Below are positions 24,577 to 62,013 of a stretch of DNA of 64,000 bases, piece after piece (the stretch's first letter is position 1; each line of letters starts with the position of its first letter). The stretch lies in NCBI GenBank assembly GCA_041675205.1, contig JBAYUF010000004.1, forward strand, positions 29,898-93,897, in the 5' to 3' direction. Origin of the DNA: Patescibacteria group bacterium (GTDB lineage: Bacteria; Patescibacteriota; Patescibacteriia; GWA2-46-9). A program made the position numbers and the translations under genes. Below the pieces are notes generated by a model, which was given only the letters and a program-made list of their open reading frames with translations, searched no databases and was not told the DNA's origin.

Positions 24577-24655
24577 GTCGGCAAGTCTAGCTGGGATTGA
24601 CTAAAAAGGCAAAAGGTGCTAGTTTATTGGCACTTTGAGCCAGGAGGTGATGAGG

Positions 24656-24832
24656 ATGAGGAGTTGTGGAAGGCTTACATTCACAGCCAAGCGTTTCGAT
24701 GGACACTGGTTCCTCGAGATCTGCCCCAGGGCCAATCTCAGACGTTTGACGCCCGATCCAATTTTCTTCAACCCGTCGACGGCGAGACCCGTGCCAGCGA
24801 CGGACAATCGCAGGGTGAGAACTCTGCACTGA
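24656..24832 (+). CDS. Small ORF 1 in GC-rich islet (about 59 aa)
   Basis: The ATG is preceded by AGGAGGTG with 8-nt spacing, and a TTGACT...TAGTTT promoter-like sequence lies at about 24597-24626. The product is Arg/Cys-rich and the call is speculative. Confidence 0.3.
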   Translation: MRSCGRLTFTAKRFDGHWFLEICPRANLRRLTPDPIFFNPSTARPVPATDNRRVRTLH

Positions 24833-24842
24833 AGGAGGTCGC

Positions 24843-24977
24843 ATGACGCGACAAAATAAGGCGAGGGCTGTTGCCAGAAAGGCGGCCAAGAAGAAGGGAG
24901 AGAGCAACGGTGGCGGCAAGAAGAAACGCCACAACAACCGTTCGGCAAAAAGGCCGAAGAAAAAGAGGGAGAAGTAA
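24843..24977 (+). CDS. Small ORF 2: 44-aa highly basic protein (MTRQNKARAVARKAAKKKGESNGGGKKKRHNNRSAKRPKKKREK)
   Basis: The ATG lies 6 nt after GGAGGT. It falls below the 60-aa cut-off of the ORF track, and a terminator follows. Confidence 0.35.
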   Translation: MTRQNKARAVARKAAKKKGESNGGGKKKRHNNRSAKRPKKKREK

Positions 24978-25049
24978 CCCTCTCCCACCCGACCGACCCG
25001 CATGGCGGCTGGTGAGCAAGGTATCCCCTAGCTCCCAGCCGCCAAAAAA

Positions 25050-25096
25050 TTTGCCAAAAAATGAATCACACCCCGACACAACGTCGTGGTGTGATT
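25050..25096 (-). terminator. Terminator hairpin between islet and SIMPL gene
   Basis: The hairpin aatcacacc...ggtgtgatt has a 9-bp stem and a T-run on the minus strand, downstream of the SIMPL gene that ends at 25117. The plus strand has an A-run upstream. Confidence 0.6.
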
Positions 25097-25116
25097 TGTA
25101 AACTCACTAACAATGC

Positions 25117-25896
25117 TTATCGAATTTCGTACTGCAACGTGACGCTTATATTCACTTCTTGGCTGCCAGGCTCAATAGTCGGCGTTGGTACTGCAGCTTT
25201 CGTTTCCGCCATCATATCTCTCTCCCCGCCGTAGGCAAGCGGATACACTGGTGGCTGACCACTTGTTCCTTCCGACACTGAAAGGAGTCGCCCTAATCGG
25301 AAGTTACCGGCCTCAGCAATATCTTTTGCTTTGGCTTGCGCCTTGGCAAAAGCTTCGGCGCGCGCTTCGTTTTCTGATGCGGTTGGGTCGTCTACCGTGA
25401 ACTGCAAACCAGAAACCGAATTAGCACCATTTGCTACAACACCAGAAAGTAACGTTCCAGCCTTAGCAAAATCGTGCACCTTTACACCAACGCTTTGGCT
25501 CACTGTGTAGCCAACGATTGATGGTGGTGGGCAAGGAGCAACACCGGTACATGGGTAGTACTGGTAACTTGGTGAAACGTTATAGCCCTGTGTGCGAATG
25601 TCTTTCTTGTCTACCCCCTGCGCCTTCAAGTAGTCAATAGCGGCATTGGTCTTTTCGGTGTTCTTTGTTTGGAGCACCGCCACGTCGTCCTTGCCTTCAG
25701 TAATAACCGTAAAACTAAATTCGGCCACATCTGGCACCACCACAGCCTTACCATCACCACTCACCGAGAAACTACGAAACGACGTTGGTTCCGCAGCCCG
25801 ACTGTATGTTTTCACGTACGCCAACGCACTTACTGCTACTGCCGCAAGCGTGAACGTACCGACAATATAAAGCGCATTTTGAATTCTTTGATTCAT
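25117..25896 (-). CDS. SIMPL domain (DUF541, BP26/OMP28-like) secreted protein
   Basis: It has a signal peptide and is related to the second paralog at 28202-28969. It is Val/Thr-rich and likely beta-rich. Confidence 0.72.
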   Translation of the reverse strand: MNQRIQNALYIVGTFTLAAVAVSALAYVKTYSRAAEPTSFRSFSVSGDGKAVVVPDVAEFSFTVITEGKDDVAVLQTKNTEKTNAAIDYLKAQGVDKKDIRTQGYNVSPSYQYYPCTGVAPCPPPSIVGYTVSQSVGVKVHDFAKAGTLLSGVVANGANSVSGLQFTVDDPTASENEARAEAFAKAQAKAKDIAEAGNFRLGRLLSVSEGTSGQPPVYPLAYGGERDMMAETKAAVPTPTIEPGSQEVNISVTLQYEIR

Positions 25897-25949
25897 AGTG
25901 TTTTTAAATAGTAAGTATTTTTAGTATAGCACAGACGGGAAGAGAGGGT

Positions 25950-26660
25950 CGCACCATTATTGGGGCGACCCTCTCGAAACCTCTTCAAACCTGCACCCCC
26001 TCGCTCAGCGCCAGCGCGAACTAGAATGCTTGCGTGGCGTGAAGTGAAAGGCGCCGATTGTCGGCGCAGGCGGCGGAGACTGCCGGTTGCAGGTGTCCGG
26101 CCTGCGTCGTGCCCGCTCACGCTCTCAATCGGAGAGGTACGGACCCGTTTTCCATGCCCACGGACCACCTTCGCCATGCGCCCGCTTACCCGGAAAAGGA
26201 ATCGCAGGCGCGCCAGGCACCGGAGATGCGAAAGTCCCATGGTCGTCGACGAAGTAGAGCACTCCGCCGCGCCACGCGACTGACCGCCTGGTCTTCCTGG
26301 CGAACCGCCTCTGGGTCGCACGGCGACGTTCCTTCACCTTCGAATGCCTCGAATGCGACGATGACGTCGACTGCTTCTTGGGGGAAGCCGCTACCGATTG
26401 CACCGGCTCCTCCATCCTCACGCCATGCGCTCGGACGGAAGCCTTATCGAGCTGACCAACGAGCACCACGCCGCGTGCCCCTTCTTCGGCAATCTTGAAA
26501 TAGTGCCTGCAACTGCACTGCGCCTACAGATCGCCACCCCCGCCCTGCTCGTCTTCCAGAACGTCCTTGTCGACTCGACAAGACGCACGATCGCGCCGCA
26601 GCTACGATGGCGAAAGTACTGGTCAATCCAGGGTCCTTGCTCTTCTGCATACATGATGCT
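25950..26660. other. GC-rich (about 62%) block with mutually overlapping ORFs in several frames, likely degraded foreign DNA
   Basis: No frame gives a convincing protein. A minus-strand ATG at 26654 with an AGGAGG SD opens a 78-aa ORF (26418-26654), and adjacent minus ORFs lie in shifted frames. Confidence 0.3.
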
Positions 26661-26872
26661 TTCCTCCTGCCTTGGGTTCAAAATTGTGCCTAACCTGCCT
26701 CCTGACTCTTCGGGAACGAAAGAACTCTATGGGAGAAGTAAGAAAAAGGCAAGATAAACATAACTTTTCTTGCTCATCCAAGAAAAGTCACCAGAAGTCA
26801 TGCCAGAGGCAGATCCGCCTTTGGTGGACTGGTCTCTATTATTTTAACGAAGCAAAAGAGTAATGAAATCCC

Positions 26873-28102: not shown

Positions 28103-28201
28103 GGATACGAAACGGAATACACAGCGTACTAGTACATTGAAACATTGCGAAAGAAACGCCCGGCGCCAATGGCACAGGACGTTTCTTTTGGGTCTTTTAC
28201 T

Positions 28202-28969: not shown

Positions 28970-29057
28970 AGTTTGAAAATTGGTGCGACATAATTATCGC
29001 TACTATTTCTAGTATAGAGCAGTTCTTTCTCGAAAGACAATTCTATAGTTTTTGTAA

Positions 29058-29094
29058 AAAAGAAATACCGCTCCTTTTGAGAGCGGTATTTCAA
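29058..29094 (-). terminator. Rho-independent terminator
   Basis: The hairpin aaataccgctc-cttttga-gagcggtattt is followed by a T-run on the minus strand, downstream of gene 29108-29398. Confidence 0.75.
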
Positions 29095-29107
29095 TACAGT
29101 GCTCCGT

Positions 29108-29398: not shown

Positions 29399-29410
29399 AC
29401 TTTTTCGTAG

Positions 29411-29427
29411 TGTGAATAATATTCACA
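29411..29427. promoter_or_regulatory. Perfect palindrome TGTGAATA-A-TATTCACA (CRP/FNR-like TGTGA-N7-TCACA)
   Basis: It lies 13-29 nt upstream of the start of gene 29108-29398. A second hairpin (tgtacg-ccgag-cgtaca) follows at 29429-29445. Confidence 0.45.
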
Positions 29428-29455
29428 GTGTACGCCGAGCGTACAGGAACTACAA

Positions 29456-30697: not shown

Positions 30698-30744
30698 GAA
30701 GAGCCTAGGTCTACCACAGTTTATCGCTTGTGTCAATCACTGCG

Positions 30745-32538: not shown

Positions 32539-32559
32539 AAAAAAAATAACGCGGCTAAC

Positions 32560-33150
32560 GTTGCGGCGCTTGCATACTCTACCCGCTTTCGACTAAAAAA
32601 GCAAGCCTAGCTTTGGGATGAGGCGGGTCAGCTAAAAGCTGCCCGCCTCGAGAAAAGGGTCACGTCACGACTGCGATTGGACTACTGAAGCCGCCTCCCA
32701 AGGCCAAAACCAATCGCTGAGTACAGTACAACGAAATTCCAGTACGAGTTACTCACATTCCTCATCACGAGGACGGGTAATGTGACGTACCACTGCACGG
32801 TTGTGTACCAGGACTCAGGCTCTTGTGTTTCTTCTGGTTTCATCTGCCCTACTCCTTTCTCCTCAACAATACAAACCTAGACCTCAAACCAAAGTTGGTC
32901 AACAAGGTACAACGCCTTGCTACCTTCGCTATGGGTTTTTATTTCATACCCCATAGGCTCGAGGTAGGCGTACGGAAGCGAAGACTGGTTGGTAGCCTTC
33001 GAGCCGCACTGTTTAAGTCCGAGCACCAGCGAGGACGAGTTTACGGCGAGCAATCAGTCGCAGTGAACCGTACCCACAACTCGGGCCGAGGGCGTCATTC
33101 TTTTGGTGACTTTTCTTAGACGAGTAAGAAAAGACACATCATGAACTTGC
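32560..33150. other. Long (about 640 bp) structured non-coding region between divergent typA and lexA
   Basis: Multiple stable hairpins are present. The first (gaggcgggtcagc...gctgcccgcctc) has about 12 bp. The second (ctatggg...cccatag) has 7 bp. The third (ggctcgagg...gccttcgagcc) has 9 bp. There is no convincing ORF. Confidence 0.35.
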
Positions 33151-33152
33151 GT

Positions 33153-33172
33153 TACTATACGTTCGTACAGTA
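33153..33172 (+). promoter_or_regulatory. Candidate SOS (LexA) box TACTATACGTTCGTACAGTA
   Basis: It matches the E. coli-type CTGT-N8-ACAG consensus with one mismatch (CTAT) and lies 12 nt upstream of the lexA ATG. Confidence 0.55.
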
Positions 33173-33183: not shown

Positions 33184-33756
33184 ATGACAACGCATGTAGA
33201 AAAGTTAGCGCAGTTCTATCGCACGCGCGATCGCATGCCAAGCTATGGTGAGCTCACAACGCTTTTAGGTTTTCGTTCTAAAAACGCCGCCACCTACTGG
33301 GTGGAACGTTGGCTGGAGCACGGTGTCGTAAAGCGTGACCGAACTGGTCGACTGCTCCCCGGTAAAGCACTCCTACCCATTCGACTGCTGGGTGACATCC
33401 AAGCTGGGTTTCCTTCTCCAGCAGAAGAAGAGAACGTCGACACTATCTCTCTTGACGACTGGTTGATTGAACAACGGGAATCAAGCTTTATGCTGCGCGT
33501 CTCCGGAGATTCAATGCAAGACGCTGGCATTCTAACCGGTGACTACGTCATTTTAGAACGTGGACGTACTCCTAAGAACGGCGACATTGTGGTGGCTGAA
33601 GTAGACAGTGCCTGGACTATGAAATATTTCGAACGGAAAAACGGTGTCGTTGCTCTGCGGTCAGGGAACCGGCGCTACCCAACACTTCGCCCCAAAGAAA
33701 CATTAACTATCGCTGGTGTTGTTACCGTTGTTATTCGTCGCTACAAAACGCTATGA
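33184..33756 (+). CDS. lexA: LexA repressor (S24 peptidase)
   Basis: An N-terminal winged HTH and the C-terminal S24 Ser/Lys dyad (SGDSM...K) are present. Confidence 0.88.
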   Translation: MTTHVEKLAQFYRTRDRMPSYGELTTLLGFRSKNAATYWVERWLEHGVVKRDRTGRLLPGKALLPIRLLGDIQAGFPSPAEEENVDTISLDDWLIEQRESSFMLRVSGDSMQDAGILTGDYVILERGRTPKNGDIVVAEVDSAWTMKYFERKNGVVALRSGNRRYPTLRPKETLTIAGVVTVVIRRYKTL

Positions 33757-35057
33757 ACCCAGAAGGCACGCACTGGAAACGGGTCATTATCCACCTTGAT
33801 GGGGATGCTTTTTTTGCCAGCTGTGAGCAAGCCATGCACCCAGAGTATCGTGGCAAACCTGTTATCACGGGTAAAGAACGTGGCATTGTGGCTGCCGCCA
33901 GCTACGAAGCGAAGGCCTTAGGTATACAGCGAGGTGTAGCGTTATGGGATGTAAAAAAAATTTGCCCTGAGGCTATTATTGTGCCGTCAGATTACGAAAC
34001 CTATTCACTTTTCTCGGAACGAATGTTTGCCATCATGCGCCGCTATACTTCCACCATTGAAGAATACGGCATTGATGAGGGGTTTGCAGACATTACTGGC
34101 CTCGCTCGCCCCCTCGGTTTATCGTACATTCAAATTGCGCAAGCCATGCAAACGGCTATTCATCGAGAGCTTGGCATAACCGTTTCCGTTGGCATGGGGC
34201 CGTCGAAAGTGTTGGCGAAGCTTGGTTCAAAACATAAAAAACCAAACAGCCTTACCGTTATTTCCCCGGGGGAGAGAATCGGCTACCTCGCAGCAACACC
34301 AGTAGGAAAACTTTGGGGCGTCGGGCCACGCACTGCCGCCTATTGCCATACGCTGCACATAGAAACAGCCCTTGATTTTGCCAGCCAACCACTCGCACTC
34401 GTAACCCGCCGCTTCACGAAGCCGCTGGTTGAACTGTGGCATGAACTACAGGGCGAATCAGTACTCCCCGTGGTAACGGCAATAAAAAATACCTATGCCA
34501 GTATCAGTAAAACAAAAACATTTACTGCATCTCGCTGTCGAGAGCTTGTCTATGCACAGCTTTTAAAAAATGTAGAGAATGCGTGCATAAAAACGCGCCG
34601 GTACGACCTGGCAAGCAAGAAAATCATTATCTTCCTCAAGCAAAATGATTTTCGAACAAGCGCAGCTGAAGCCTCATTAACGCGTGCCACCGCCTACCCA
34701 CAAGACCTGGCGCGAGTGCTTCATGATTTGTTTGACCGCATCTTTATACCAGGTACCGACTACCGTGCCACGGGCATCGTCCTGACCGACATGGTTCTAA
34801 GTGCAGACGTGCAGCGAGCACTCTTTGAGCCACCCGTGACCCTTGAACGATTGCACAACGTGTACGAAGCCGTTGATGAATTAGCTGAGAAGTATGGCAA
34901 ACACACTGTTCACTTAGCTGGCAGTGAAATGGCTCATAGAGAACCTGCCCACAACTCCCAGAGAAGCGAGCTGCCAGAACGAAAACGAACACGGCTGCGA
35001 GGTGAAACCACCAGAAAACATTTGGCTATTCCCCTACTCCTGCACGAGCTACGATAA
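33753..35057 (+). CDS. Y-family DNA polymerase (UmuC/DinB-like, translesion)
   Basis: IIHLDGDAFFASCE and SYEAKALGI motifs are present. The start overlaps the lexA stop (ATGA). Confidence 0.85.
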   Translation: MNPEGTHWKRVIIHLDGDAFFASCEQAMHPEYRGKPVITGKERGIVAAASYEAKALGIQRGVALWDVKKICPEAIIVPSDYETYSLFSERMFAIMRRYTSTIEEYGIDEGFADITGLARPLGLSYIQIAQAMQTAIHRELGITVSVGMGPSKVLAKLGSKHKKPNSLTVISPGERIGYLAATPVGKLWGVGPRTAAYCHTLHIETALDFASQPLALVTRRFTKPLVELWHELQGESVLPVVTAIKNTYASISKTKTFTASRCRELVYAQLLKNVENACIKTRRYDLASKKIIIFLKQNDFRTSAAEASLTRATAYPQDLARVLHDLFDRIFIPGTDYRATGIVLTDMVLSADVQRALFEPPVTLERLHNVYEAVDELAEKYGKHTVHLAGSEMAHREPAHNSQRSELPERKRTRLRGETTRKHLAIPLLLHELR

Positions 35058-35059
35058 CT

Positions 35060-35596
35060 CTAACCACCAACAATAAGTCTGTAGAGTAATTTCGTTATTG
35101 GATCAAGGTCTGGACCATATACCAATAACCCACCAAGACCACCCGTTAAGGTAACTGCCATAAGCCCTGCCATCGCAGTAACTGGCGCTAACCAACTCGA
35201 AACGACACGCTCTGCGATACGCGCTAGGTTAAATACGAATGACGGTAGTCCTTTTGCTACTCGACCACTCAGGCGTTCGAGTAGCCCAAACTCTGTAGCA
35301 ACAACAAGGACGTAGCAAACAGCAAGCACACTGAAAATGATAGTGGTTGTCTGCGCCGCTAGTTCGTGAAGCTCAAGAATGCGCAGAAAATCCCCACCCG
35401 CGCCGAATGACTCACCGGCAATATCACCGGTTAACAATGCCACTCCGGCACCGATAGTCCCTGGTAGGAGAAAAAGTGCCTTGGCATATCGCCACCATGG
35501 CAGAGCGAGCACAATTCGGAACCGTAAAAATTCCAACCCGACATACACGGTGAGTAGCGCGATTGGAAAATGAACAACGATTGGATGAATATCCAT
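35060..35596 (-). CDS. Hypothetical membrane protein (DUF2231-like)
   Basis: It has 4-5 TM helices and is probably co-transcribed with the upstream nuclease gene. Confidence 0.45.
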   Translation of the reverse strand: MDIHPIVVHFPIALLTVYVGLEFLRFRIVLALPWWRYAKALFLLPGTIGAGVALLTGDIAGESFGAGGDFLRILELHELAAQTTTIIFSVLAVCYVLVVATEFGLLERLSGRVAKGLPSFVFNLARIAERVVSSWLAPVTAMAGLMAVTLTGGLGGLLVYGPDLDPITKLLYRLIVGG

Positions 35597-35607
35597 ACGT
35601 TTTTTAT

Positions 35608-36360
35608 TTAGGTTAATTGCCGCACGGCACCAACGTAACTACAATAATCGCAATCTTTCCCGGGCAGCGGCACGACTGAGCCATCCATACAACGTCGAAG
35701 CGCAAAGATAGTATTTTGAATCCATGCGTCATCCCCCGTATAGGGAATAAGCGTGACCTCAAATTCAATCTTACCGTCAAACGCTTTCCGATCAGTTAGC
35801 CCATTGCAGTACACGAAATAACCGGTCGAAGAAACCTTATGTCCGTTCTGTCTGAGAAGCCACTGATAAATCTCCATCTGACGCTTATAACCAATATGCC
35901 AGTCCTGGTTCAGGCTGGTGATGCTTTCACCTTTGCTGGTGGCTTTGTAATCAACGACAATGTATTCACCGGCGGAATTTTGCCAGAGGTCGTCAATGGC
36001 GCCGGTGATGATGAGGTTCGTTGTCTCGTGTAAGTATTCAATGCCTTTAAAATTTTCTCGCCAATCATTCAATTGCTCATGCGCCACAGGCCGAGCATCA
36101 ACGCCATATTTTTCAATAAGCGGATGTTGCGTGCCATTGACTCGATGAATATCGAATTCTTTTTTAAGAAGTGTGTCGACCGCAGTGTTAAGGTTGAAAG
36201 GAAAACCCGGTGGCCGGCCAACACCTAACCGGCGGTCAAGATAAAAGCAACGGGGACATTCGATAAATAAATCTATTTTTGAACGACTAATTTTGAATGG
36301 TCGAGGGCTTGCCGGGTCAAAAATATTCCGTGTTCGAGTGGGATTATAGTATTTGCTCAT
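35608..36360 (-). CDS. PD-(D/E)XK nuclease superfamily protein, Cas4/RecB-like with Cys cluster
   Basis: An N-terminal CPRC, the motifs IITGAIDDL and IVVDYK (D...D/ExK), and a C-terminal C-x14-CDYC suggest an Fe-S nuclease fold. No CRISPR array is nearby. Confidence 0.6.
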   Translation of the reverse strand: MSKYYNPTRTRNIFDPASPRPFKISRSKIDLFIECPRCFYLDRRLGVGRPPGFPFNLNTAVDTLLKKEFDIHRVNGTQHPLIEKYGVDARPVAHEQLNDWRENFKGIEYLHETTNLIITGAIDDLWQNSAGEYIVVDYKATSKGESITSLNQDWHIGYKRQMEIYQWLLRQNGHKVSSTGYFVYCNGLTDRKAFDGKIEFEVTLIPYTGDDAWIQNTIFALRRCMDGSVVPLPGKDCDYCSYVGAVRQLT

Positions 36361-36450
36361 ACCGAAAGTATAGCACGGCGCGCGTTTGACGCTCTACTCG
36401 ATTCGCTATAAGATTTTGTCCTCTTTCGACAATTTCAGGAGGAACTCGCC

Positions 36451-37482
36451 ATGAACGACAAGGACGTATTGAATGCGGCAATCGACTGGCTTGTTGCCGA
36501 CCGGCTGCCGAATGACTTCTCTTTCACAACCTGCCTAAAGGCACTCTTCAAATGCGACGATGTGCCTTTGATCGCTCGATTTCTCAGCGAGCACTTCGCC
36601 TGGCTACGGCACAACACTGCTGTGGCACACGAGCACATCATCGAAGCCTTCTGGCTACTAAAAACGGAGCCAGTGGTGGTGCCCGGTCGGGTACTACAGC
36701 TTGGTGGAACCGGCGGCGCAGGTAAATCACGCAGACTGAACACCACGAGTTTAGCAACACTTGTGGCGGCCAGCGTGGATAGCGGCTGGCAGATAGTGAA
36801 GTTCGGTAATTCCGGACAACGCACGGCGGGCAGTACCGACTTCTGGGAAATAGCACTCGGTATTCCTGGAAGCTCACTGAACGTCGCACGCGCAACGAGT
36901 ACTCTACCAACAACTGGTTTGGCCATTATTCATGCCAGAACGGTCATCCCCTTGCTCGGAAAATTGCGCGCAGCCCGCCAGCAAGTCCAGGGGCCTACTG
37001 TTCTGAACCTCGTTGGTCCGTTGCTTCACCCTATCTACGGCGAAGAAACAATGGCGGCGATTGGGGTTTTTGACGAGAAGTTCCTGATGCCAGTAGCGCA
37101 CGCCATGCAGCAGCTTGGTTTGTCTGGGGTTGTATATAGCGGCACAGGCGAGCACGGTAGCTGGCTCGATGAACTCTCTTCAGACGGCATGACCTACGTG
37201 ATTGGTATTGGGCGGAACGAATTGTACCGTCCGGCAACGCTGCTCACTCAGTACTTTTCCACGTCAGAAACAGTGAGTGCAGCTGTCCTCGACAGACTCG
37301 TCCAAGGTGACGTTGAAAACCCTGCGGCTCGATGGGTTATCGAAAATGCGGCGTTCTTACTTGCGGCCACTGGTCGACCGGGCAGCGCACCAAATGCAGC
37401 GAGTGTTCGAGAGGTGACGATCACACTGAACAACGCCGTACGAAATGGTTCGGTGAAACGCCTCATTGAGGCATACCGATAG
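36451..37482 (+). CDS. TrpD2/YbiB-like protein (anthranilate phosphoribosyltransferase family, glycosyltransferase family 3)
   Basis: Gly-rich loop LQLGGTGGAGKSRRLNT; GC-rich with AGGAGG SD. Confidence 0.6.
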   Translation: MNDKDVLNAAIDWLVADRLPNDFSFTTCLKALFKCDDVPLIARFLSEHFAWLRHNTAVAHEHIIEAFWLLKTEPVVVPGRVLQLGGTGGAGKSRRLNTTSLATLVAASVDSGWQIVKFGNSGQRTAGSTDFWEIALGIPGSSLNVARATSTLPTTGLAIIHARTVIPLLGKLRAARQQVQGPTVLNLVGPLLHPIYGEETMAAIGVFDEKFLMPVAHAMQQLGLSGVVYSGTGEHGSWLDELSSDGMTYVIGIGRNELYRPATLLTQYFSTSETVSAAVLDRLVQGDVENPAARWVIENAAFLLAATGRPGSAPNAASVREVTITLNNAVRNGSVKRLIEAYR

Positions 37483-37497
37483 AAAAAAGGGGGTACT

Positions 37498-37546
37498 GAA
37501 ACAAACCGGGCGCTTCGCAAACCTGCGAAGCGCCCGGTTCCCTTTT
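37498..37546. terminator. Bidirectional terminator (14-bp perfect stem)
   Basis: The hairpin ccgggcgcttcgca-aacc-tgcgaagcgcccgg is flanked by A- and T-runs. Confidence 0.8.
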
Positions 37547-39931: not shown

Positions 39932-39962
39932 AGTGAAAGTATAGCATGACTCTCAAGCTACC

Positions 39963-46123: not shown

Positions 46124-46266
46124 TGCTTCTAGTATACCTTGAATCGACCGAATGCAGACACTACACAACTTCTAGAACTATTGAGCCTTGTTTTTTCCTT
46201 TGCAGGGTCTACTATTGTGGGTACTACGTACTACTCGGCACGTAGAATTCCAGCAGGAGAAACGCC

Positions 46267-46386
46267 ATGCAAGGAGCACGTCGCGCACGCAGCTGTGAAG
46301 GCAAGGATCCGGACTTCGAAGAGAACCTCGATCCGGAACCGGACACCGCAACCGACACCGAAGTCGAAGAGGACGACGAGGACTAG
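46267..46386 (+). CDS. Small ORF: 39-aa acidic peptide in GC-rich islet
   Basis: GGAG lies 8 nt upstream of the ATG, a terminator follows, and the ORF is below the track cut-off. The call is speculative. Confidence 0.25.
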   Translation: MQGARRARSCEGKDPDFEENLDPEPDTATDTEVEEDDED

Positions 46387-46440
46387 ATCCCGTCTACCCT
46401 ACCACTTCATTCGGCCAGCAAGGCCGACAAGCCAACATAC

Positions 46441-46484
46441 GGCGGGCGGTTACCAACTGGAACCGACCCGCCTCAATTTTTTAT
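46441..46484 (+). terminator. Terminator hairpin with T-run
   Basis: The hairpin ggcgggcggtt...aaccgacccgcc is followed by tcaatttttta. Confidence 0.6.
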
Positions 46485-47496: not shown

Positions 47497-47650
47497 AAAT
47501 GCAGTGTTAGCTAATTGGCTTGAGCCTATGCTAAATAAGGTAAATTGGCAAGGTAAGTAGCTTGCTATTTCAAATGATTACTTATAGAATCTGCGCACTG
47601 TTTACCTACGGCAACGGCCTGGAAACAGAATACGACCGAGAGGTTATACA

Positions 47651-47947
47651 TTGAGCCAGCTTCAAGACGGTTACATTTTTATCAGTGGGCCGGTTGGCTA
47701 TGACGGTGTCGTGGCCCTGGCTAAACCTGGTGCACCTGAAGCCTGGGTGCATCTCCTTGACGGTGTTACGGGTGCTCATGTGCATCGCGTAGAGCACCTA
47801 AGGGAGCTCATCAGTGGCAGACTGGCCACTCGCGACAAGAAAGGGTGGACCAACGCATCCCTACTCTTCGCCGTAGAGCCGAACACCGACGGCAAGACCG
47901 GGGAAATCATCCCCTTCGCCAAGTTCCGGCGGATGCTCGGCGTCTAG
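47651..47947 (+). CDS. Hypothetical protein (GC-rich, SD-preceded)
   Basis: A TTG start has GAGAGG 9 nt upstream, and GC is about 58%. Confidence 0.35.
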   Translation: MSQLQDGYIFISGPVGYDGVVALAKPGAPEAWVHLLDGVTGAHVHRVEHLRELISGRLATRDKKGWTNASLLFAVEPNTDGKTGEIIPFAKFRRMLGV

Positions 47948-47979
47948 CCGAACGAACGCCGGGAGCGACTGCTGGCGGG

Positions 47980-49107
47980 CTATCCAACTTCTAGGCAACG
48001 GCCTTGAACGTTGGGTAGCCCGCCATCGATTTTTTCAACTATTTCGTTTATGAGCTGTGGACCCTCGTAAATCATTCCGGTGATAAGTTGCACAAGGTCC
48101 GCGCCGCTGGCAAAGCGCGCCTGTGCGTCAGCTGAAGAAAATATTCCACCACAACTCACTAGCGCCACCTCACTACCAAACACCTGCCGCATGTGAGCCA
48201 CCAATGCGTGCGACTGCAAAGCGGTTGGCCGACCACTAAAGTTGCCTGGCTGACCAGCCAACGCCGCAATTTCTACTGCGTCGAACGCAGCACTGTGTCT
48301 ATTTTTTACTAAGTTTGAAAAAATAAATCCTCGTATACCGTACTGTAAAGCAATGCGTACAAGCACCTCGGCGTTAGGCACGGTGATTTCACTTGGCATC
48401 TTTACAAATAGTGGCTGCCGAATTCCGAGCGTTGTAACGGCACGTACCAGTGCGATAAAATTCTCAGGCTCTGAGAAAGTTTCAGTGAGTGCCGTGTTAG
48501 GACAACTGACATTAAGTTCAAAAAAACTAACGTATGGTTTCGCCTGAAATAATGAAAAAGTCTCTAAGTAATCATCGATTGCCTTAGGAACAGTATTAAC
48601 AGCGGAAACATTTGAGCTACCAATACTTATGCCAAGTGTCTGTTTTTCTAACTGCTTTTTGTCGAGACGAGCCGCAACAGCAATTGCACCGTCAGATTTG
48701 AAACCTTTGTTTACTAATATAGCTTGCGATTTCGGTAGCCGCACTAATTGTTTTCCTGGATTACCCGAGGATGGCCGAGCGGTTACCGTGCCAACGGTGG
48801 TAAAACCAAAACCAACTGCCGGCAGCACCTTCGCCAGATGACCGTTGTAATCAAAACCGGCCGCTAACCCAACGGGGTTTGCAAAGCTAATACCCAAAAC
48901 AGTTTTGGGCTTCCGCACTGTTCGTCCACAAAAAAATTGAACGATTGCCCGTCGATTCTCCAAATACTCACCTACGGCGACTGCTCCTCGATGTACCCGA
49001 CTAGCGTCAAACTTGAAAAGAACCGGCCGAAGAATGGTGCGATATAGAGCACCAATAAGTTTATGCGGCGCAGTAGTGCGAACGATGGCGTGCGTGAACC
49101 ACTTCAT
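47980..49107 (-). CDS. pyrD: Dihydroorotate dehydrogenase (quinone), class 2
   Basis: GFGFTTVGTVT, NLSCPNT-like (NVSCPNT) and GGIFSSADA are present. Confidence 0.9.
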   Translation of the reverse strand: MKWFTHAIVRTTAPHKLIGALYRTILRPVLFKFDASRVHRGAVAVGEYLENRRAIVQFFCGRTVRKPKTVLGISFANPVGLAAGFDYNGHLAKVLPAVGFGFTTVGTVTARPSSGNPGKQLVRLPKSQAILVNKGFKSDGAIAVAARLDKKQLEKQTLGISIGSSNVSAVNTVPKAIDDYLETFSLFQAKPYVSFFELNVSCPNTALTETFSEPENFIALVRAVTTLGIRQPLFVKMPSEITVPNAEVLVRIALQYGIRGFIFSNLVKNRHSAAFDAVEIAALAGQPGNFSGRPTALQSHALVAHMRQVFGSEVALVSCGGIFSSADAQARFASGADLVQLITGMIYEGPQLINEIVEKIDGGLPNVQGRCLEVG

Positions 49108-53911: not shown

Positions 53912-54061
53912 ATGTGCTGCAACATCCTTTACTATAGCCCGTTTTGAGGAAAATTGAACGTCACGGATATACTGTTTGAATCTTGCTGAAACGGGGGCGG
54001 GGCGAGTCTCATTCAGTGTTACTGAACAAAACCCGCCCCGTCAAGAAACCCGATGTACCCG

Positions 54062-55048
54062 TCAGTAGACGAGCGTCCCGCCGATGACCGGATAGCTATC
54101 CGACACCGTACTCATCACCTCCGACCCTCCGGGTGGTACGTACGACCAAGAGAGCCCGCCCGTAGCGCCTTGCGTACCATCGATTGTCACGCCGAAGGTA
54201 CTCATGGCAGTCGCACCGCTGGTGTCGACTTTGACACCCAAAGAAACGGTGTTGCCAGCAGTAACAGTGAAGGGCGGGTCAAACGTTACCAGACTGGTTG
54301 ATCCACCCATGGTGCCGCTCCAGTTATCACCCGTGCCGATGGAACTGGCGCCGACGTAGATCACCGGCGAGGCATTTACCGGCACTTGCGCGCCGACATT
54401 GCCAGTCCGCGTCAGTGTCAAAGAATGCAAGGTGAGATTTCGACCACCTTGCGCCTTCACATTGAAGATGGCGACCGTCTGTCCAACGGCTGGTGTAGAG
54501 GCACCGACTGGGCTCGCCGCCGAAAGGGTGATGATGGGCACCACCGATTCGGCGAGTGTCGTTGTTGTCGTCGTCGTGGTGGTAGTCGTTGTTGTCGTTG
54601 TGGTGACACTGCTGCACTGCGCGGTGCAGCTAGTAACCTCCGCAATCAATACTTCGACATCATCGCAGACGAGTGTGCCGCACCCCACCTCGCCTTGAGG
54701 GCCAGGTGCGCCTTGGAGTCCCTGGGATCCAACGACACCAGGCAGACCCTGCGGACCCTGAATGCCGCAGTAGCGAATGACGGCGTTCACAGACGAAACG
54801 CCGTCGCTCACATCGACAACGCAGTCCGCCGGCATGAAGGTCGCGGTCGCGGTGAAAATGCCATGGCCGCCCGCTTCCCCCGAAGGGATGCCGTCGAGCA
54901 TGACCGGGAAACCAGGCGTGGCACCACTGCCCTTGATGATGAGCTGACCACCTTTGATGGCAGCTTGCTTCACCACGATGCCGTCAGCCGCTTGTGCCGA
55001 AAAGGCCAGCGCGCACGAAAAGAACAGAGCTATGAACGGATTCCGCAT
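54062..55048 (-). CDS. Secreted collagen-like (Gly-X-Y) and poly-Thr repeat protein
   Basis: A signal peptide, a GIQGPQGLPGVVGSQGLQGAPGPQGEVG run and a T16 tract (imperfect triplet repeat at about 54555-54607) are present. GC is about 60% and the SD AAGGAGGAA precedes the start. Confidence 0.6.
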   Translation of the reverse strand: MRNPFIALFFSCALAFSAQAADGIVVKQAAIKGGQLIIKGSGATPGFPVMLDGIPSGEAGGHGIFTATATFMPADCVVDVSDGVSSVNAVIRYCGIQGPQGLPGVVGSQGLQGAPGPQGEVGCGTLVCDDVEVLIAEVTSCTAQCSSVTTTTTTTTTTTTTTTTLAESVVPIITLSAASPVGASTPAVGQTVAIFNVKAQGGRNLTLHSLTLTRTGNVGAQVPVNASPVIYVGASSIGTGDNWSGTMGGSTSLVTFDPPFTVTAGNTVSLGVKVDTSGATAMSTFGVTIDGTQGATGGLSWSYVPPGGSEVMSTVSDSYPVIGGTLVY

Positions 55049-55146
55049 GGGAATTCCTCCTTTGTTTTTGTTCGACAGGAAATTACCGACAACTATTCTT
55101 AGAGTAAAATGGTGACTTTGTCAACGTATTTAATGAATTTTAAACA

Positions 55147-55187: not shown

Positions 55188-55199
55188 ACCTAGTAAAAG

Positions 55200-57766: not shown

Positions 57767-57788
57767 TAAAAATTCAACCAAAACGTCA

Positions 57789-59552: not shown

Positions 59553-59794
59553 GCGATACGAATGTATTTTTTGAAAACGTAAAATATTCAGAACTTTTTC
59601 TTAAACTACAATACTTTTTTTAGTATACTACACAATGAAAGACTTTCGTTATTTCATAATGCGGTTTCTGTAAATTTGAAATGTATAAAGACAGCGGCGA
59701 ATGGGTCAGCATCGCCAACCTCCCCGCCCTTCGCGTATTGTCTTCACCACTTATTTGAAGCGTTGCTGAGATAAATAGATGTATTCAAAATTTT

Positions 59795-60511
59795 TTGTTA
59801 TACTTTTTGCTATTATATATGATACCAATTTTCTTAATTGCCGCCGTCATAAATGTTTTATTATCGACGGCAATTGTTATTCGTTTACGAAGTTCTTTTC
59901 AAAATAACGAAAAAGCAACCGCGAATAAACTTTTTATACTTTTTTACGAATTTTTTGGCTGCGCCTGGGTTGCGTGGACACTCGTCTACCTGGTTGATGA
60001 CCCCTATGGGAAAAATGCTTTGGATATAGTGGGTTACTTTCTATTAATTTTTTCAACGGCATTTATCGTGCAGGTACCCCTACTGCTTAGGCAAAAAAGG
60101 GCTGCTGCATTTTTTTTCTCAATACTTGAATTGCTTATTGCACTAATTTACGCCCTTGGTCGTGTAATGTATTTCCATCCTATGGCGCTTGCCACCACCG
60201 CACCTTTTTATATGTGGATACCAACTGAAGAAAACCAACTTATTTATTTATTGGGAATTAGTACCGTACCTGGAGCAATTGCCATATCGGTTACTTTTTA
60301 CATTATGGGGAAAAATGCATCATCCCAAATTAGAAAAAAATCTGTTTACCTTGCACTTGGAAAATTTGTTTTGCTTCTGGCGGCAATTATTGCTTTTTTT
60401 ATAGTGCCCTACCAAAATACGTTGCTTGTTTATACCCTCGCGGCATTCCTAGTTTCAACAAGTCTGCTTCTAACTTTTTTTACCATAAAACACTTTCAAG
60501 TAACCAGCTGA
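59795..60511 (+). CDS. Hypothetical AT-rich polytopic membrane protein
   Basis: It has about 7 TM helices and GC of about 38%. Confidence 0.45.
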   Translation: MLYFLLLYMIPIFLIAAVINVLLSTAIVIRLRSSFQNNEKATANKLFILFYEFFGCAWVAWTLVYLVDDPYGKNALDIVGYFLLIFSTAFIVQVPLLLRQKRAAAFFFSILELLIALIYALGRVMYFHPMALATTAPFYMWIPTEENQLIYLLGISTVPGAIAISVTFYIMGKNASSQIRKKSVYLALGKFVLLLAAIIAFFIVPYQNTLLVYTLAAFLVSTSLLLTFFTIKHFQVTS

Positions 60512-61362
60512 CGGTACTTCATTTTATACTCCTTCAGGTTCGCTACGATAATAAAGCTGATGATAACGAGGAGTGACCATGAACTCACTTTGCCAGGGTG
60601 CACAAGCGTCCAGGTAACCGCTTGGTCTGGGTACTGCCACGCACCAAAAAACGTTGCTACATTTTCAGCTATCCAAATAAAGAAGCCAATGAGTACGAAA
60701 GAGAGTGGTAGCGGCATTGAAAACTCTTTTTTCGTCACCGTAAAGTAAACCTTTGTGCGATAAAATACTACGAGCACAAGGAGTGCCAACAGCCAACGAA
60801 AATCGTAAACGTAGTGATGCGTGAAAAAATTAAGATAAATCGCTGCGGCGAGTGGGACAGTAATTGCTTGCCCAGGACTCCCCGTTAGGCGCAGGTGGAA
60901 AAGTTTCCAGGCTTGGCTAATGTAGCTGCCAACAGCGGCGTACATAAAGCCGCTGTAGAGTGGCACGCTAAAAATTTTCAAGTAACCAAATTCAGGGTAC
61001 GTCCACGAACCAATTTCTGGTCGAGTCTTAAAGACTTCCAGAACAAAACCGACCACATGGAACAGGGCAATCGTTTTTGCTTCGTCTGTGGTTTCTAATT
61101 TTGTCCAAATGAGGACTGCTTGAATTACTACAGCGCCAAGAAAAATGAAGTCATACCGAGGCAGCGGGCCAAGCGGTATAACCGTTGAAACAAAAAGCAA
61201 CGCAAAAAAAGAACCAGCGAACACGCAAGCTCGGGCTTGCTTTAAACCAAAAATTATTGCTTCACGAATAAACACGTATTTACTGTTTTCGAACTGGATT
61301 TTTAAAAGATGTGTAGGCACCAATGAACCGAGGTTTTCTGCCCCCGTCAGGCCACTCGACAA
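60496..61362 (-). CDS. DUF817 family membrane protein
   Basis: Its polytopic topology fits the family. The annotated start overlaps the upstream gene by 82 nt, so the true start may lie downstream. Confidence 0.5.
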   Translation of the reverse strand: MSSGLTGAENLGSLVPTHLLKIQFENSKYVFIREAIIFGLKQARACVFAGSFFALLFVSTVIPLGPLPRYDFIFLGAVVIQAVLIWTKLETTDEAKTIALFHVVGFVLEVFKTRPEIGSWTYPEFGYLKIFSVPLYSGFMYAAVGSYISQAWKLFHLRLTGSPGQAITVPLAAAIYLNFFTHHYVYDFRWLLALLVLVVFYRTKVYFTVTKKEFSMPLPLSFVLIGFFIWIAENVATFFGAWQYPDQAVTWTLVHPGKVSSWSLLVIISFIIVANLKEYKMKYRQLVT

Positions 61363-61558
61363 GTTCAGTAAATTCCTTCAAATCGCGATAGTAAACAAGT
61401 CCATCTTTTAGAGAGATGTATACGACTGCCTTGTTCCCCTCTCGTGCGTTGGTCGATTCAGTGGCAACAAAAAGAACACGGTATGTTCCCCCTTTATAGT
61501 GCTGATACATTCCTGGAGTAACTTCTAGGTCGTGAGGCATATCCAAAGTATAGCTCAT
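61280..61558 (-). CDS. DUF1653 domain protein
   Basis: MYQHYKGGTYRVLFVATESTNAREGNKAVVYISL matches DUF1653. The start is at MSYTLDMPHD. Confidence 0.6.
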   Translation of the reverse strand: MSYTLDMPHDLEVTPGMYQHYKGGTYRVLFVATESTNAREGNKAVVYISLKDGLVYYRDLKEFTELVEWPDGGRKPRFIGAYTSFKNPVRKQ

Positions 61559-61638
61559 CAAAATGTAAAAAGGACGAAAGGCGGGTCGGTCGGCGTTGCC
61601 AACTTCCCCGCCTCTCTCGTGATCCTGGCTGAGTAGTC

Positions 61639-61860
61639 TCAGCTTCTGGAAGGTTTGATGAGACCTTCCCTGACGCAAAGCACGGCCGCCTGCGTGCGGT
61701 TCTTGACGCCGATCTTGCGGAAAATCCGCTTGAGCTCTGACTTGATGGTCTCGGCCGAGACCTTCAGGTCCCTGGCAATCTCCGCATTCTTGAGGCCATC
61801 CGAAACCAGCCCCAGCACCTTCTTTTCATGATCGGTGAGCTGAAAACCATTGGCGTTCAT
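61639..61860 (-). CDS. LuxR/GerE-family HTH transcriptional regulator (stand-alone)
   Basis: LTDHEKKVLGLVSDGLKNAEIARDLKVSAETIKSELKRIFRKIGVKNR is present. The gene is GC-rich and preceded by an AGGAGAG SD. Confidence 0.7.
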   Translation of the reverse strand: MNANGFQLTDHEKKVLGLVSDGLKNAEIARDLKVSAETIKSELKRIFRKIGVKNRTQAAVLCVREGLIKPSRS

Positions 61861-62013
61861 GGAACTCTCCTGGAAACATAGTACCTTCCCATGGGCAGAA
61901 GGTCCGGTGCCAAGTTTTCATACATACACCAAAGTGTCAAGATTAACACGGCATATTAAATACCCAAGCGAATGCAATTGTATCAATTGATAGTACGGAA
62001 TCGTTGCCAGAAA

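What the first reader, a model, noticed from the sequence alone, without database searches (positions are those of the whole stretch)
24590..61900. Scattered GC-rich, SD-bearing genes and islets contrast with SD-less host genes, suggesting multiple acquisitions from a high-GC donor
Besides the 3.5-kb island, several other segments show about 55-62% GC, and their ORF starts are preceded by AGGAGG-type SDs. They are 24590-25100, 25950-26660, 36451-37482 (TrpD2/YbiB-like), 46140-46470, 47651-47947, 54062-55048 (collagen-like) and 61639-61860 (LuxR-type). Essentially every housekeeping gene in the window lacks an SD. The islets at 24590-25100 and 46140-46470 carry only tiny ORFs with perfect SDs and terminators. 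One is a 44-aa highly basic peptide (MTRQNKARAVARKAAKKKGESNGGGKKKRHNNRSAKRPKKKREK). The other is a 39-aa acidic peptide. The block at 25950-26660 has competing frameshifted ORFs, as if decaying.
Basis: seen in the sequence. Interest (0 to 1): 0.55.

Follow-up and report, generated by a model that had tools for sequence, protein, structure and literature searches.

The report
Foreign gene islets in a Patescibacteria genome
A tiny symbiotic-type bacterium, whose own genes start translation without the usual ribosome-binding signal, carries about nine short GC-rich inserts that each have that signal, so they are most likely genes picked up from other bacteria, which is a known process seen here unusually clearly.

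Summary
The window comes from a Patescibacteria (CPR) metagenome contig. Native DNA has 47.4% GC. Of 53 native genes, 51 lack a Shine-Dalgarno (SD) motif, and 15 have a -10 box 6-7 nt before the ATG, so they are leaderless.

Nine segments (0.25-3.6 kb, 13% of the window, 57.8% GC) each carry an SD, an ORF and a GC-rich hairpin. A strict SD+ATG+ORF scan finds 11 sites against 1.4 expected. None is a native gene and 10 lie in these segments. GC3 (0.66 vs 0.46), codon usage and GC-normalised dinucleotide signature also differ from the host.

The interpretation, multiple acquisitions from a high-GC donor, is partly supported. The LuxR gene has 70-75% identical relatives only in non-CPR bacteria, and the two best hits sit on contigs of 67.6% GC. 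The other proteins searched are orphans, so no donor, and no single donor, can be named. The TrpD-like gene has a 33%-identical, SD-led, GC-elevated homologue in the closest relative. No presence/absence test was possible because synteny is lost.

The small peptides are unverified as genes, and "decay" of 25950-26660 is unproven. Horizontal transfer into Patescibacteria is already documented, so this is a clear new example and not a new kind.

The parts
24640..25050 (+). Islet 24. It holds an upstream small ORF followed by the 44-aa, very basic ORF at 24843-24977. The upstream ORF is either 24616-24846 (76 aa), whose TGA stop overlaps the next ATG as ATGA, or 24656-24832 (58 aa) behind an AGGAGG. 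The 44-aa ORF has SD GAAGGAGGT (dG -13.3). A hairpin lies at about 25000-25045.
   Evidence: GC is 0.54-0.57 and GC3 of the 44-aa ORF is 0.69. No family match. Coding status is unverified.
25940..26690 (-). Islet 26, the GC-richest block (0.62). SD AGGAGGAA precedes ORF 26654->26418 (78 aa). ORF 26412->26125 (95 aa) starts 5 nt after the first ORF's stop. A terminator-like hairpin lies at 25945-25975.
   Evidence: GC3 is 0.70 and 0.69. No Pfam, PHROG or NCBIfam hit. Rfam gives nothing. The minus-strand fold z-score is only -2.95.
32590..33100 (-). Islet 32, not in the finding. SD AAGGAG precedes ORF 32843->32682 (53 aa, hydrophobic C-terminal half). A hairpin lies at 32636-32665. The islet sits between bipA and lexA.
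   Evidence: GC3 is 0.61 and dG is -11.2. It was called as a gene on the source contig (L001 3054-3215).
36440..37545 (+). Islet 36. SD AGGAGGAA precedes a 343-aa TrpD-fold protein (36451-37482). A 16-bp perfect hairpin lies at 37504-37539.
   Evidence: Pfam Glycos_transf_3 at 3.3e-20. The TIGR01245 trpD score of 86.9 is below the 199 cut-off. PDB hits are all TrpD. Outside itself, no hit exceeds 34% identity. A 33%-identical, SD-led homologue lies in relative L047. GC3 is 0.58 and codon usage is intermediate.
46230..46480 (+). Islet 46. SD CAGGAGAA precedes the 39-aa acidic ORF 46267-46386. A canonical hairpin with a T-run lies at 46441-46481.
   Evidence: GC is 0.60 and GC3 is 0.65. No homologue or family match. 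Coding status is unverified.
47600..48035 (+). Islet 47. A weak SD (GAGAGG) precedes TTG-start ORF 47651-47947 (98 aa). A long hairpin with a T-run lies at 47973-48026. The islet is flanked by an 11-bp direct repeat, GGCAACGGCCT, at 47610 and 47994. The native DHODH ORF (47980-49107, minus strand) reads through the hairpin.
   Evidence: The protein is an orphan: only itself among 1.84e9 representatives. The AF2 model has pLDDT 48. DHODH homologues stop aligning at query residues 356-362 of 375.
53975..55065 (-). Islet 54. SD AAGGAGGAA precedes a 328-aa secreted protein (55048->54062). The protein has a signal peptide, 9 G-X-Y triplets, a Cys-rich linker, a run of 15 Thr and a beta-rich C-terminal domain. 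A hairpin lies at about 53995-54040.
   Evidence: The Pfam Collagen hit has E = 0.002 and 18 bits, below the cut-off. GC is 0.60 and GC3 is 0.66. No phage or IMG/VR relatives. The AF2 model has pLDDT 42.
61570..61900 (-). Islet 61. SD CAGGAGAG precedes a 73-aa stand-alone LuxR/GerE HTH protein (61860->61639). A hairpin with a T-run lies at 61573-61610. A TTGACA -35-like box lies about 75 nt upstream of the ATG.
   Evidence: Pfam GerE at 3.7e-17. Best relatives are 70-75% identical and lie in non-CPR bacteria. The two top-hit contigs have 67.6% GC. The same gene in the same context occurs in an independent JGI assembly (L002, 99.96% identity). GC3 is 0.74.
7720..11320 (+). The 3.6-kb island named in the finding, given here as context. 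It holds two SD-led membrane proteins, 7822-10056 (744 aa) and 10053-11147 (364 aa), directly after the native T4SS-pilin gene.
   Evidence: GC is 0.58 and GC3 is 0.67. The dinucleotide signature gives delta* = 117 against a null of 44 +/- 13. The distance to the pooled small islets is only 45.
35608..36376 (-). Example of the native gene type. It is a PD-(D/E)XK nuclease gene with the extended -10 box TGCTATACT ending 7 nt before the ATG at 36360. It has no SD and is a leaderless design.
   Evidence: (repeat family D5). Fifteen of 53 native genes have TANNNT starting at -13 or -12 (binomial p = 3e-12).

Best explanation
The window is chromosome of a Patescibacteria (Parcubacteria/Paceibacteria-like) organism.

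**Native genes.** They are translated without SD pairing. About a third are leaderless, with a -10 box placed so that transcription starts at the ATG. Leadered and operon-internal native genes also have no SD.

**Inserts.** At least nine self-contained cassettes of 0.25-3.6 kb sit in intergenic spacers. Each has a short leader with a canonical SD, one or two ORFs and a GC-rich hairpin. Their synonymous-site GC, codon preferences and dinucleotide signature come from a different, higher-GC, SD-using genetic background.

**Reading.** They are horizontally acquired genes, taken from non-CPR bacteria or from mobile elements of such bacteria. They are only partly ameliorated. The SD is most simply a legacy of the donor, because nothing in the recipient selects for it.

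**Shown:** the composition and signal contrast, the cassette anatomy, the orphan status of most products, and the non-CPR high-GC affinity of the LuxR gene.

**Inferred:**
- Transfer itself.
- Several separate events, suggested by the scattered sites, both orientations, and the range of GC3 from 0.58 to 0.75.
- The route. Natural transformation or T4SS-mediated uptake followed by illegitimate or microhomology integration is suggested only by the literature on Patescibacteria and by one 11-bp flanking repeat.
- Whether the genes are expressed at all.
For: - Host identity: an NCBI name for the window's own protein is "Patescibacteria group bacterium". The closest BipA and DHODH relatives are CPR MAGs.
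- SD versus GC3: Fisher p = 1e-7; 11 sites against 1.4 expected, none native.
- Leaderless native genes.
- Codon usage.
- Dinucleotide signature, which is independent of GC.
- Hairpins after every islet ORF.
- LuxR relatives lie outside the CPR, on contigs of 67.6% GC with 73-74% nt identity over 177 nt.
- The LuxR islet junction is reproduced in an independent assembly.
- Two more SD-led GC-rich genes lie on the same contig outside the window.
- Similar SD-led GC-rich orphan genes occur in some related contigs (L047, L027, L033, L031).
- Literature: hundreds of islands and transferred genes in aquifer Patescibacteria, up to 13% of genome length, with non-CPR donors included (PMC12455944). The anti-SD motif is undetected in about half of Parcubacteria 16S genes (PMC9297842). 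Natural competence was used to transform a Patescibacterium (PMC10633639, title and abstract).
Against: - No donor was found for any islet except at family level for LuxR, and 75% identity is not a recent donor.
- The TrpD-like and 98-aa proteins have no close relative in collections that include the source assembly.
- No integrase, transposase or tRNA-adjacent site was seen. Flanking repeats are absent except at islet 47.
- No empty site in a relative could be shown because synteny is lost.
- The TrpD-like gene has a homologue with the same SD and GC features in the nearest relative. This fits an old or lineage-internal gene as well as a transfer.
- Across other SD-poor Patescibacteria loci, the GC3 excess of SD-led ORFs is small (+0.03, p = 0.05).
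- The small ORFs have no support as genes beyond an SD, frame-specific GC3 and a hairpin.
Confidence: 0.7

Rival explanations
1. The SD-led GC-rich genes are native, lineage-specific and fast-evolving. They would form a separate expression class: leadered, SD-dependent, perhaps conditionally translated. Their composition would reflect their own protein composition or selection, not transfer.
For: - The TrpD-like gene has a homologue with a strong SD and raised GC in the nearest relative L047.
- Its codon usage is the closest to native among the islets.
- Most products are orphans, as many CPR-specific proteins are.
- SD-led GC-richer ORFs recur in some related contigs.
Against: - The difference lies at synonymous sites and in the GC-normalised dinucleotide signature, not only in amino-acid content.
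- LuxR relatives are non-CPR.
- The two TrpD-like genes are 33% identical, whereas housekeeping proteins of the same two genomes are 65-74% identical. They also sit at different loci and are not behaving as orthologues.
- Native leadered genes show no SD.
Confidence: 0.12
2. Some islets (24, 26, 46, and possibly 47) do not encode proteins. They would be decayed remnants of foreign DNA or non-coding RNA genes, and the small ORFs would be by-products of GC-rich sequence.
For: - The 44-aa, 39-aa, 78-aa, 95-aa and 98-aa products have no homologue or family match.
- The region 25950-26660 has overlapping ORFs in several frames.
- AF2 gives low confidence for the 98-aa protein.
- The two peptides are of low complexity.
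Against: - SD motifs sit at the correct spacing before an ATG far more often than chance allows.
- GC3 is highest in the SD-defined frame, at 0.64-0.71.
- ORF pairs are arranged as in operons, with an ATGA overlap at 24843 and a 5-nt gap at 26412.
- No Rfam family matches even at E <= 1, and the fold z-score is modest.
Confidence: 0.1
3. The islets are assembly or binning artefacts, in which foreign reads were joined into a CPR contig.
For: The source is a short-read metagenome assembly (k141 contig).
Against: - Each islet is 0.25-1.1 kb and has native sequence on both sides within one 166.6-kb contig.
- The LuxR islet and both its junctions are 99.96% identical in a separate JGI assembly from another sample.
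- The LuxR and TrpD-like proteins are recorded from several sources and from contigs of different length, 130,457 and 166,629 bp.
Confidence: 0.03
4. The cassettes are integron-type or other site-specific gene cassettes, in which an ORF plus a folded recombination site is inserted by a recombinase.
For: - The units are small, orphan and compositionally foreign, each an ORF plus a hairpin.
- The islet 47 hairpin contains ATCCAAC...GTTGGGT, which fits the RYYYAAC/GTTRRRY core. This is my reading of the sequence.
- An 11-bp direct repeat flanks islet 47.
Against: - The units are scattered singly in both orientations and do not form an array.
- No integrase is among the genes called over about 85 kb.
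- The hairpins are near-perfect GC stems of 30-50 nt, mostly followed by T-runs. They look like intrinsic terminators, not 57-141-nt imperfect attC sites.
- In islet 47 the core-like motifs lie near the loop and not at the base of the stem.
Confidence: 0.04

Closest known systems
Horizontally transferred genes and genomic islands in groundwater Patescibacteria (mSystems 2025, PMC12455944)
   Same: - The recipient group is the same.
- Islands and single transferred genes make up to 13% of genome length there, and 13.3% of this window here.
- Transcriptional regulators are among the transferred genes, and donors include non-CPR phyla.
- Most transfers are not recent.
   Different: - That study detected transfers with MetaCHIP and IslandViewer and needed a recovered donor.
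- Here most islets are sub-kilobase single-ORF cassettes with orphan products and no donor.
- Here the islets are recognised by SD presence together with GC3, a criterion that study did not use (the word "Shine" occurs 0 times).
SD-independent translation in Parcubacteria lacking the 16S anti-SD motif (Tsurumaki et al., RNA 2022, PMC9297842)
   Same: The native genes of this window have no SD, as expected for such lineages.
   Different: - The 16S 3' end of this organism is not in any sequence I could obtain, so loss of the anti-SD is not shown here.
- That paper does not discuss SD-bearing foreign genes or leaderless promoters ("leaderless" occurs 0 times).
Compositional detection of recently acquired genes followed by amelioration. 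This is the classical Lawrence-Ochman concept, cited from my own knowledge.
   Same: Atypical GC3, codon usage and dinucleotide signature in short segments of an otherwise homogeneous genome.
   Different: The translation-initiation signal acts as an extra, nearly binary marker, because the recipient does not use it.
Stand-alone LuxR/GerE-family HTH regulators
   Same: The 73-aa product matches Pfam GerE (3.7e-17). It is 70-75% identical to 70-120-aa single-domain LuxR proteins.
   Different: It lacks the roughly 36-aa N-terminal extension of its best hits. Its target is unknown.

Membership tests
Horizontally acquired genomic islet | Base composition, codon usage and oligonucleotide signature that are atypical for the recipient | tested here: met
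   - GC is 0.578 in the islets and 0.474 in native DNA.
- GC3 is 0.655 versus 0.457.
- Codon usage differs.
- delta* is 85 and 117 against nulls of 33 +/- 10 and 44 +/- 13.
Horizontally acquired genomic islet | Phylogenetic incongruence: the closest relatives lie outside the recipient's lineage | tested here: inconclusive
   - Met for LuxR by hit list only, with no tree built.
- The TrpD-like protein's only identified relative is in another Patescibacterium, at 33% identity.
- The 98-aa protein and the peptides have no relatives.
Horizontally acquired genomic islet | Absent from the syntenic site in close relatives | tested here: inconclusive
   The closest contigs found (BipA 74% and 68%, DHODH 58%) do not keep gene order around any islet. 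Only near-identical strains carry the same context.
Horizontally acquired genomic islet | Mobility hallmarks: an integrase or transposase, a tRNA target, or flanking direct repeats | tested here: not met
   - No such genes appear in the called-gene lists.
- No islet abuts the tRNA or tmRNA.
- Only islet 47 has an 11-bp flanking repeat.
- This feature is not obligatory for islets acquired by transformation.
LuxR/GerE HTH family | Significant match to the GerE domain model above the curated cut-off | tested here: met
   PF00196 scores 62.1 bits against a cut-off of 23.5.
   PF00591 scores 73.2 bits against a cut-off of 27. PDB hits are all TrpD, with a best E-value of 8e-16.
   - No YbiB chain appears among the PDB hits.
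- The trpD equivalog score of 86.9 is below the 199 cut-off.
- The N-terminal PF02885 domain is not detected.
- The PRPP motif reads GTGGA where TrpD has GTGGD. This is my reading, and the consensus is from my own knowledge.
Collagen triple-helix repeat protein | A run of G-X-Y triplets recognised by the Collagen model | tested here: inconclusive
   Nine consecutive G-X-Y triplets are visible. PF01391 scores 18.1 bits, below the 27.2 cut-off.
Integron gene cassette | An attC recombination site and an intI integrase or cassette array | tested here: not met
   - No integrase was called.
- The units are scattered and do not form an array.
- The hairpins look like intrinsic terminators.
- No attC covariance model was available, so this rests on inspection.
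SD-independent / leaderless translation regime of the host | Native start codons lack SD, and -10 boxes abut the start codons | tested here: met
   Fifty-one of 53 native genes have no SD. Fifteen of 53 have TANNNT at -13 or -12, p = 3e-12.
SD-independent / leaderless translation regime of the host | The 16S rRNA 3' end lacks the CCUCC anti-SD | not testable with these tools
   No 16S gene lies in the window, in the roughly 21 kb of extra contig obtained, or in nine related loci.

The most novel reading that the evidence does not exclude
The host ribosome may not use, or may lack, the anti-SD. In that case the perfect SDs in front of at least 10 foreign ORFs have one of two meanings.

1. They are untouched donor relics. 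SD presence would then work as a clock and marker for recent imports in SD-less CPR lineages.
2. They are read by a second, conditional initiation mode, comparable to Bacteroidota, where the anti-SD is sequestered (cited from my own knowledge). Foreign cassettes would then form a separately controlled translational class.

In the first case, such cassettes could record the identity of the high-GC partner organism of an uncultured episymbiont.
Probability: 0.15. Interest if true: 0.7.

Novelty: new member of a known kind. Interest (0 to 1): 0.42.

Why it matters
- It gives a simple, almost binary way to flag imported genes in the many Patescibacteria that do not use SD-led initiation: an SD motif plus raised GC3.
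- It poses a testable question. Can an SD-blind, largely leaderless translation system express SD-led foreign genes, or are these cassettes silent cargo?
- If donors can be found, sub-kilobase captures like these could point to the physical partners of uncultured episymbionts.
- In itself the finding is a clear example of a documented process, horizontal transfer into CPR genomes.

Tried and rejected
- **Wasted search.** I joined the small ORFs and the frames of 25950-26660 into one chimeric query for the 5.8-billion-protein search. It returned nothing, not even self hits. The low-complexity Lys and Asp/Glu runs probably swamped the 8000-candidate list.
- **DNA-level search of the joined islets against PLSDB plasmids.** Only short LuxR HTH matches came back.
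- **tblastn against GenBank phages** with the collagen-like and 744-aa proteins: no match.
- **IMG/VR scans** with the TrpD-like, 744-aa and collagen-like proteins: no relatives.
- **PHROGs and NCBIfam.** The only notable hit was the TrpD-like protein to phrog_15632, of unknown function.
- **Synteny tests for empty sites.** I used DHODH against GTDB genomes and BipA against JGI metagenomes. Relatives were found but gene order is not conserved.
- **Non-coding RNA reading of 25940-26690.** Rfam shows nothing at E <= 1, and fold z-scores are -2.95 and -0.91.
- **A shared end motif.** The exact 13-mer CCGACCGACCCGC lies after both the 44-aa ORF and LuxR. It is post hoc, lies within terminator-like stems, and is not clearly above chance.
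- **AlphaFold** on the 98-aa and collagen-like proteins without alignments gave pLDDT 48 and 42, which is uninformative.
- **Cluster look-up** for organism names of LuxR hits returned no names.
- **Search for a 16S gene** to read the anti-SD: none in reach.
- **Generality.** In other SD-poor Patescibacteria loci, SD-led ORFs are only slightly GC3-richer (+0.03, p = 0.05). The strong pattern is specific to this genome and a few relatives.

Full report
**Source and host.** The window is part of a 166.6-kb metagenome contig (ENA ERZ27247358, k141_626719). NCBI names its proteins "MAG... [Patescibacteria group bacterium]". The closest relatives of its BipA (74%, 68%) and DHODH (58%) are on CPR contigs labelled Paceibacterota, Magasanikiibacteriota and Vogelbacteria. 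Rfam and ARAGORN find only a tmRNA and tRNA-Asp.

**The observation.** Window GC is 0.488. I defined nine atypical segments. With them removed, native DNA has GC 0.474 and the segments have 0.578, and together they make up 13.3% of the window.
- Native 300-bp windows reach 0.557 at the 99th percentile, so GC alone is not a clean discriminator.
- I measured duplex energy with the canonical anti-SD for curated starts. Many of these starts agree with the gene calls stored for the contig.
- Two of 53 native genes reach -7 kcal/mol. One of them overlaps a -10 box. The other is infC, with an uncertain start.
- Ten of 12 islet ORFs reach that value.
- Mean GC3 is 0.457 +/- 0.057 for native genes and 0.655 for islet ORFs. 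Fisher's exact test for GC3 >= 0.57 against SD gives p = 1e-7.
- Because the small ORFs had been picked partly for their SD, I also ran a blind scan: a strict SD hexamer, 4-9 nt, ATG, and an ORF of at least 35 aa. It gave 11 sites against 1.44 +/- 1.24 in dinucleotide-preserving shuffles (maximum 5).
- Ten of the 11 sites lie in the GC-rich segments, one is antisense to the tmRNA, and none is a native gene.

**How native genes start.** Fifteen of 53 native genes have a TANNNT hexamer beginning at -13 or -12, often TGnTATACT or TAAACT (binomial p = 3e-12). Transcription would then begin at or next to the ATG, which is a leaderless design. Native genes with a -10 box 26-32 nt upstream (25896, 16646) and operon-internal genes (17683, 19064, 33753) also lack an SD. 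The host therefore does not depend on SD pairing at all. Tsurumaki et al. (PMC9297842) report that the anti-SD motif was detected in only 48% of Parcubacteria 16S genes. I could not obtain this organism's 16S gene.

**Anatomy of the islets.** Each islet lies in an intergenic spacer, in either orientation relative to its neighbours. Each consists of a short leader with an SD, one or two ORFs, and a strong GC-rich hairpin (z -3 to -6). T-runs follow the hairpins at islets 46, 47, 61 and 36. The hairpin after the 44-aa ORF is followed by an A-run.

| Islet | Content |
|---|---|
| 24 | A small ORF whose TGA overlaps the ATG of the 44-aa basic ORF (ATGA) |
| 26 (minus strand) | A 78-aa ORF behind AGGAGGAA, then a 95-aa ORF 5 nt after the first ORF's stop; both GC3 about 0.70 |
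| 32 (new) | SD-led 53-aa hydrophobic peptide at 32682-32843 (-) |

- Islet 26 can thus be read as a two-gene unit as easily as "competing frameshifted ORFs". Nothing shows decay, and nothing shows that either ORF is real.
- On the same contig outside the window, two more genes fit the pattern: L062 1304-1798 and L063 536-889.

**Evidence for foreign origin beyond GC.**
- Codon choice differs at synonymous sites. Ile ATC is 0.5-0.8 in islets, against 0.23 in native genes (native ATT is 0.59). TTA is nearly absent. CTC/CTG, AAG and GAG are preferred. The TrpD-like gene is intermediate.
- The GC-normalised dinucleotide signature of the pooled islets differs from native DNA (delta* = 85; null from size-matched native pieces 33 +/- 10, maximum 79). 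So does that of the 3.6-kb island (117; null 44 +/- 13).
- The pooled small islets and the island differ from each other by only 45. This fits similar kinds of source but does not prove one donor.

**What the products are.**

| Product | Result |
|---|---|
| 61639-61860 | GerE/LuxR HTH, 3.7e-17 |
| 36451-37482 | TrpD/Glycos_transf_3 fold; fails the trpD equivalog cut-off; no N-terminal domain hit; no YbiB among PDB matches, so "TrpD2/YbiB-like" is unproven |
| 54062-55048 | Secreted protein with nine G-X-Y triplets, sub-threshold for the Collagen model |
| 44-aa, 39-aa, 78-aa, 95-aa, 98-aa products | No match in Pfam, PHROGs or NCBIfam |

**Search for donors.**
- The 98-aa protein matches only itself among 1.84 billion cluster representatives.
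- The TrpD-like protein has nothing above 34% identity.
- Phages, IMG/VR contigs and plasmids give nothing.
- LuxR is the exception, with 170 hits. The best are 70-75% identical small LuxR proteins.
- The hits that carry an organism name are from Deltaproteobacteria, Binatia, Dadabacteria and Limnocylindrales. None is from Patescibacteria except the query itself.
- The two top hits lie on a 763-kb contig and on an NCBI MAG contig. Both contigs have 67.6% GC. There the gene has GC3 of 0.86-0.91, and nucleotide identity to the window is 73-74%.
- This supports a non-CPR, high-GC origin for that gene family. It does not point to a recent or identified donor.

**Relatives of the host.**
- Gene order around the islets is not conserved in any contig retrieved, so no empty-site comparison was possible.
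- The nearest relative (L047) carries a 33%-identical TrpD-like gene at a different locus. It has an in-frame TAA, a strong SD (AAGGAGGAGAG) and GC 0.54-0.56, against 0.479 for that locus.
- L047, L027, L031 and L033 contain other SD-led, GC3-rich ORFs. Of the nine I scanned, seven had no Pfam match and two had one (MaoC-like, below its cut-off, and Transgly_assoc).
- Across all SD-poor loci, the GC3 excess of SD-led ORFs is small (+0.03, p = 0.05).
- The pattern is therefore strong in this genome, present in some relatives, and not a general rule.

**Artefact check.** The LuxR islet with both junctions is 99.96% identical in a separate JGI assembly. The LuxR and TrpD-like proteins are recorded from several sources and from contigs of different length.

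**Mechanism.**
- I found no integrase, no tRNA-adjacent site and no flanking repeats, with one exception.
- The exception is an 11-bp direct repeat, GGCAACGGCCT, on either side of islet 47. The chance of such a repeat is about 0.006 per islet and about 0.05 over eight islets.
- At that islet the native DHODH ORF runs 15-19 codons beyond where its homologues stop aligning, and passes through the islet's hairpin.
- This is compatible with microhomology-mediated insertion but does not prove it.
- Uptake by natural competence or through the T4SS is inferred only from the literature (PMC10633639, PMC12102498, PMC12455944).

**Comparison with what is known.** Horizontal transfer into Patescibacteria is documented. 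It includes regulators and non-CPR donors, and reaches up to 13% of genome length (PMC12455944). What this window adds is the very clean contrast between SD-led imports and a leaderless, SD-free native gene set, and the very small size and orphan nature of most cassettes.

**Verdict.** This is a new member of a known kind, and interest is moderate.

Noticed in passing
window 26764-26797 (-) and 33100-33133 (+): A 34-nt element, CTTYTGGTGACTTTTCTTRGAYGAGYAAGAAAAG, with a 9-6-9 palindrome, occurs twice at 88% identity. None is expected by chance. One copy lies about 50 nt upstream of the lexA ATG. The other lies about 110 nt upstream of the SD-led ORF of islet 26. Each copy is followed by a CTTGC -35-like box. 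It is not found in related loci. It may be a shared operator, which would put islet 26 under the same control as lexA.
   Followed up: partly
window about 33147-33166: The lexA promoter carries TACTATACGTTCGTACAGTA, overlapping its -10 box. This resembles the E. coli-type SOS box (CTGT-N8-ACAG) with one half-site mismatch. It was seen by eye, and the consensus is from my own knowledge.
   Followed up: no
window 32682-32843 (-): An SD-led 53-aa ORF with a hydrophobic C-terminal half and its own hairpin lies between bipA and lexA. Its size and shape are those of a type I toxin or a small membrane protein.
   Followed up: partly
window-wide, for example 36368-36376, 39939-39947 and 61547-61555: About 28% of native genes have a -10 box (often TGCTATACT) ending 6-7 nt before the ATG, so leaderless mRNAs appear common in this Patescibacterium. 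A full-text search combining 'leaderless', 'Patescibacteria' and 'Shine-Dalgarno' listed no paper containing both 'leaderless' and 'Patescibacteria'.
   Followed up: yes
window 47610-47620 and 47994-48004; DHODH ORF 47980-49107 (-): An 11-bp direct repeat flanks the 98-aa ORF islet. The DHODH reading frame extends through the islet's terminator hairpin, beyond the point where homologues stop aligning.
   Followed up: partly
window 6915-7460, next to 7720-11320: A native, leaderless T4SS_pilin (PF18895) gene lies directly upstream of the 3.6-kb GC-rich island, which holds two multi-pass membrane proteins. A Logan contig that is 100% identical to window 1-7267 ends about 450 bp before the island.
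   Followed up: no
window 33184-37482: The TrpD-fold gene sits in a DNA-damage-type neighbourhood: lexA and a Y-family polymerase (IMS domains), then DUF2231, then a PD-(D/E)XK nuclease. In E. coli the TrpD2 gene ybiB belongs to the LexA regulon (from my own knowledge). This could be coincidence.
   Followed up: no
24989-25001 (+), 61581-61593 (-) and 46463-46472 (+): The exact 13-mer CCGACCGACCCGC lies downstream of both the 44-aa ORF and the LuxR gene, in gene orientation. The terminators of islets 46 and 61 are 73% alike. This is not clearly above chance.
   Followed up: partly
L047 11874-12005 (+) and 12105-13181 (-): In the closest relative, bipA is followed by an SD-led 43-aa ORF. Next comes the TrpD-like gene, which carries an in-frame TAA and may be a pseudogene or a sequencing error.
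   Followed up: no
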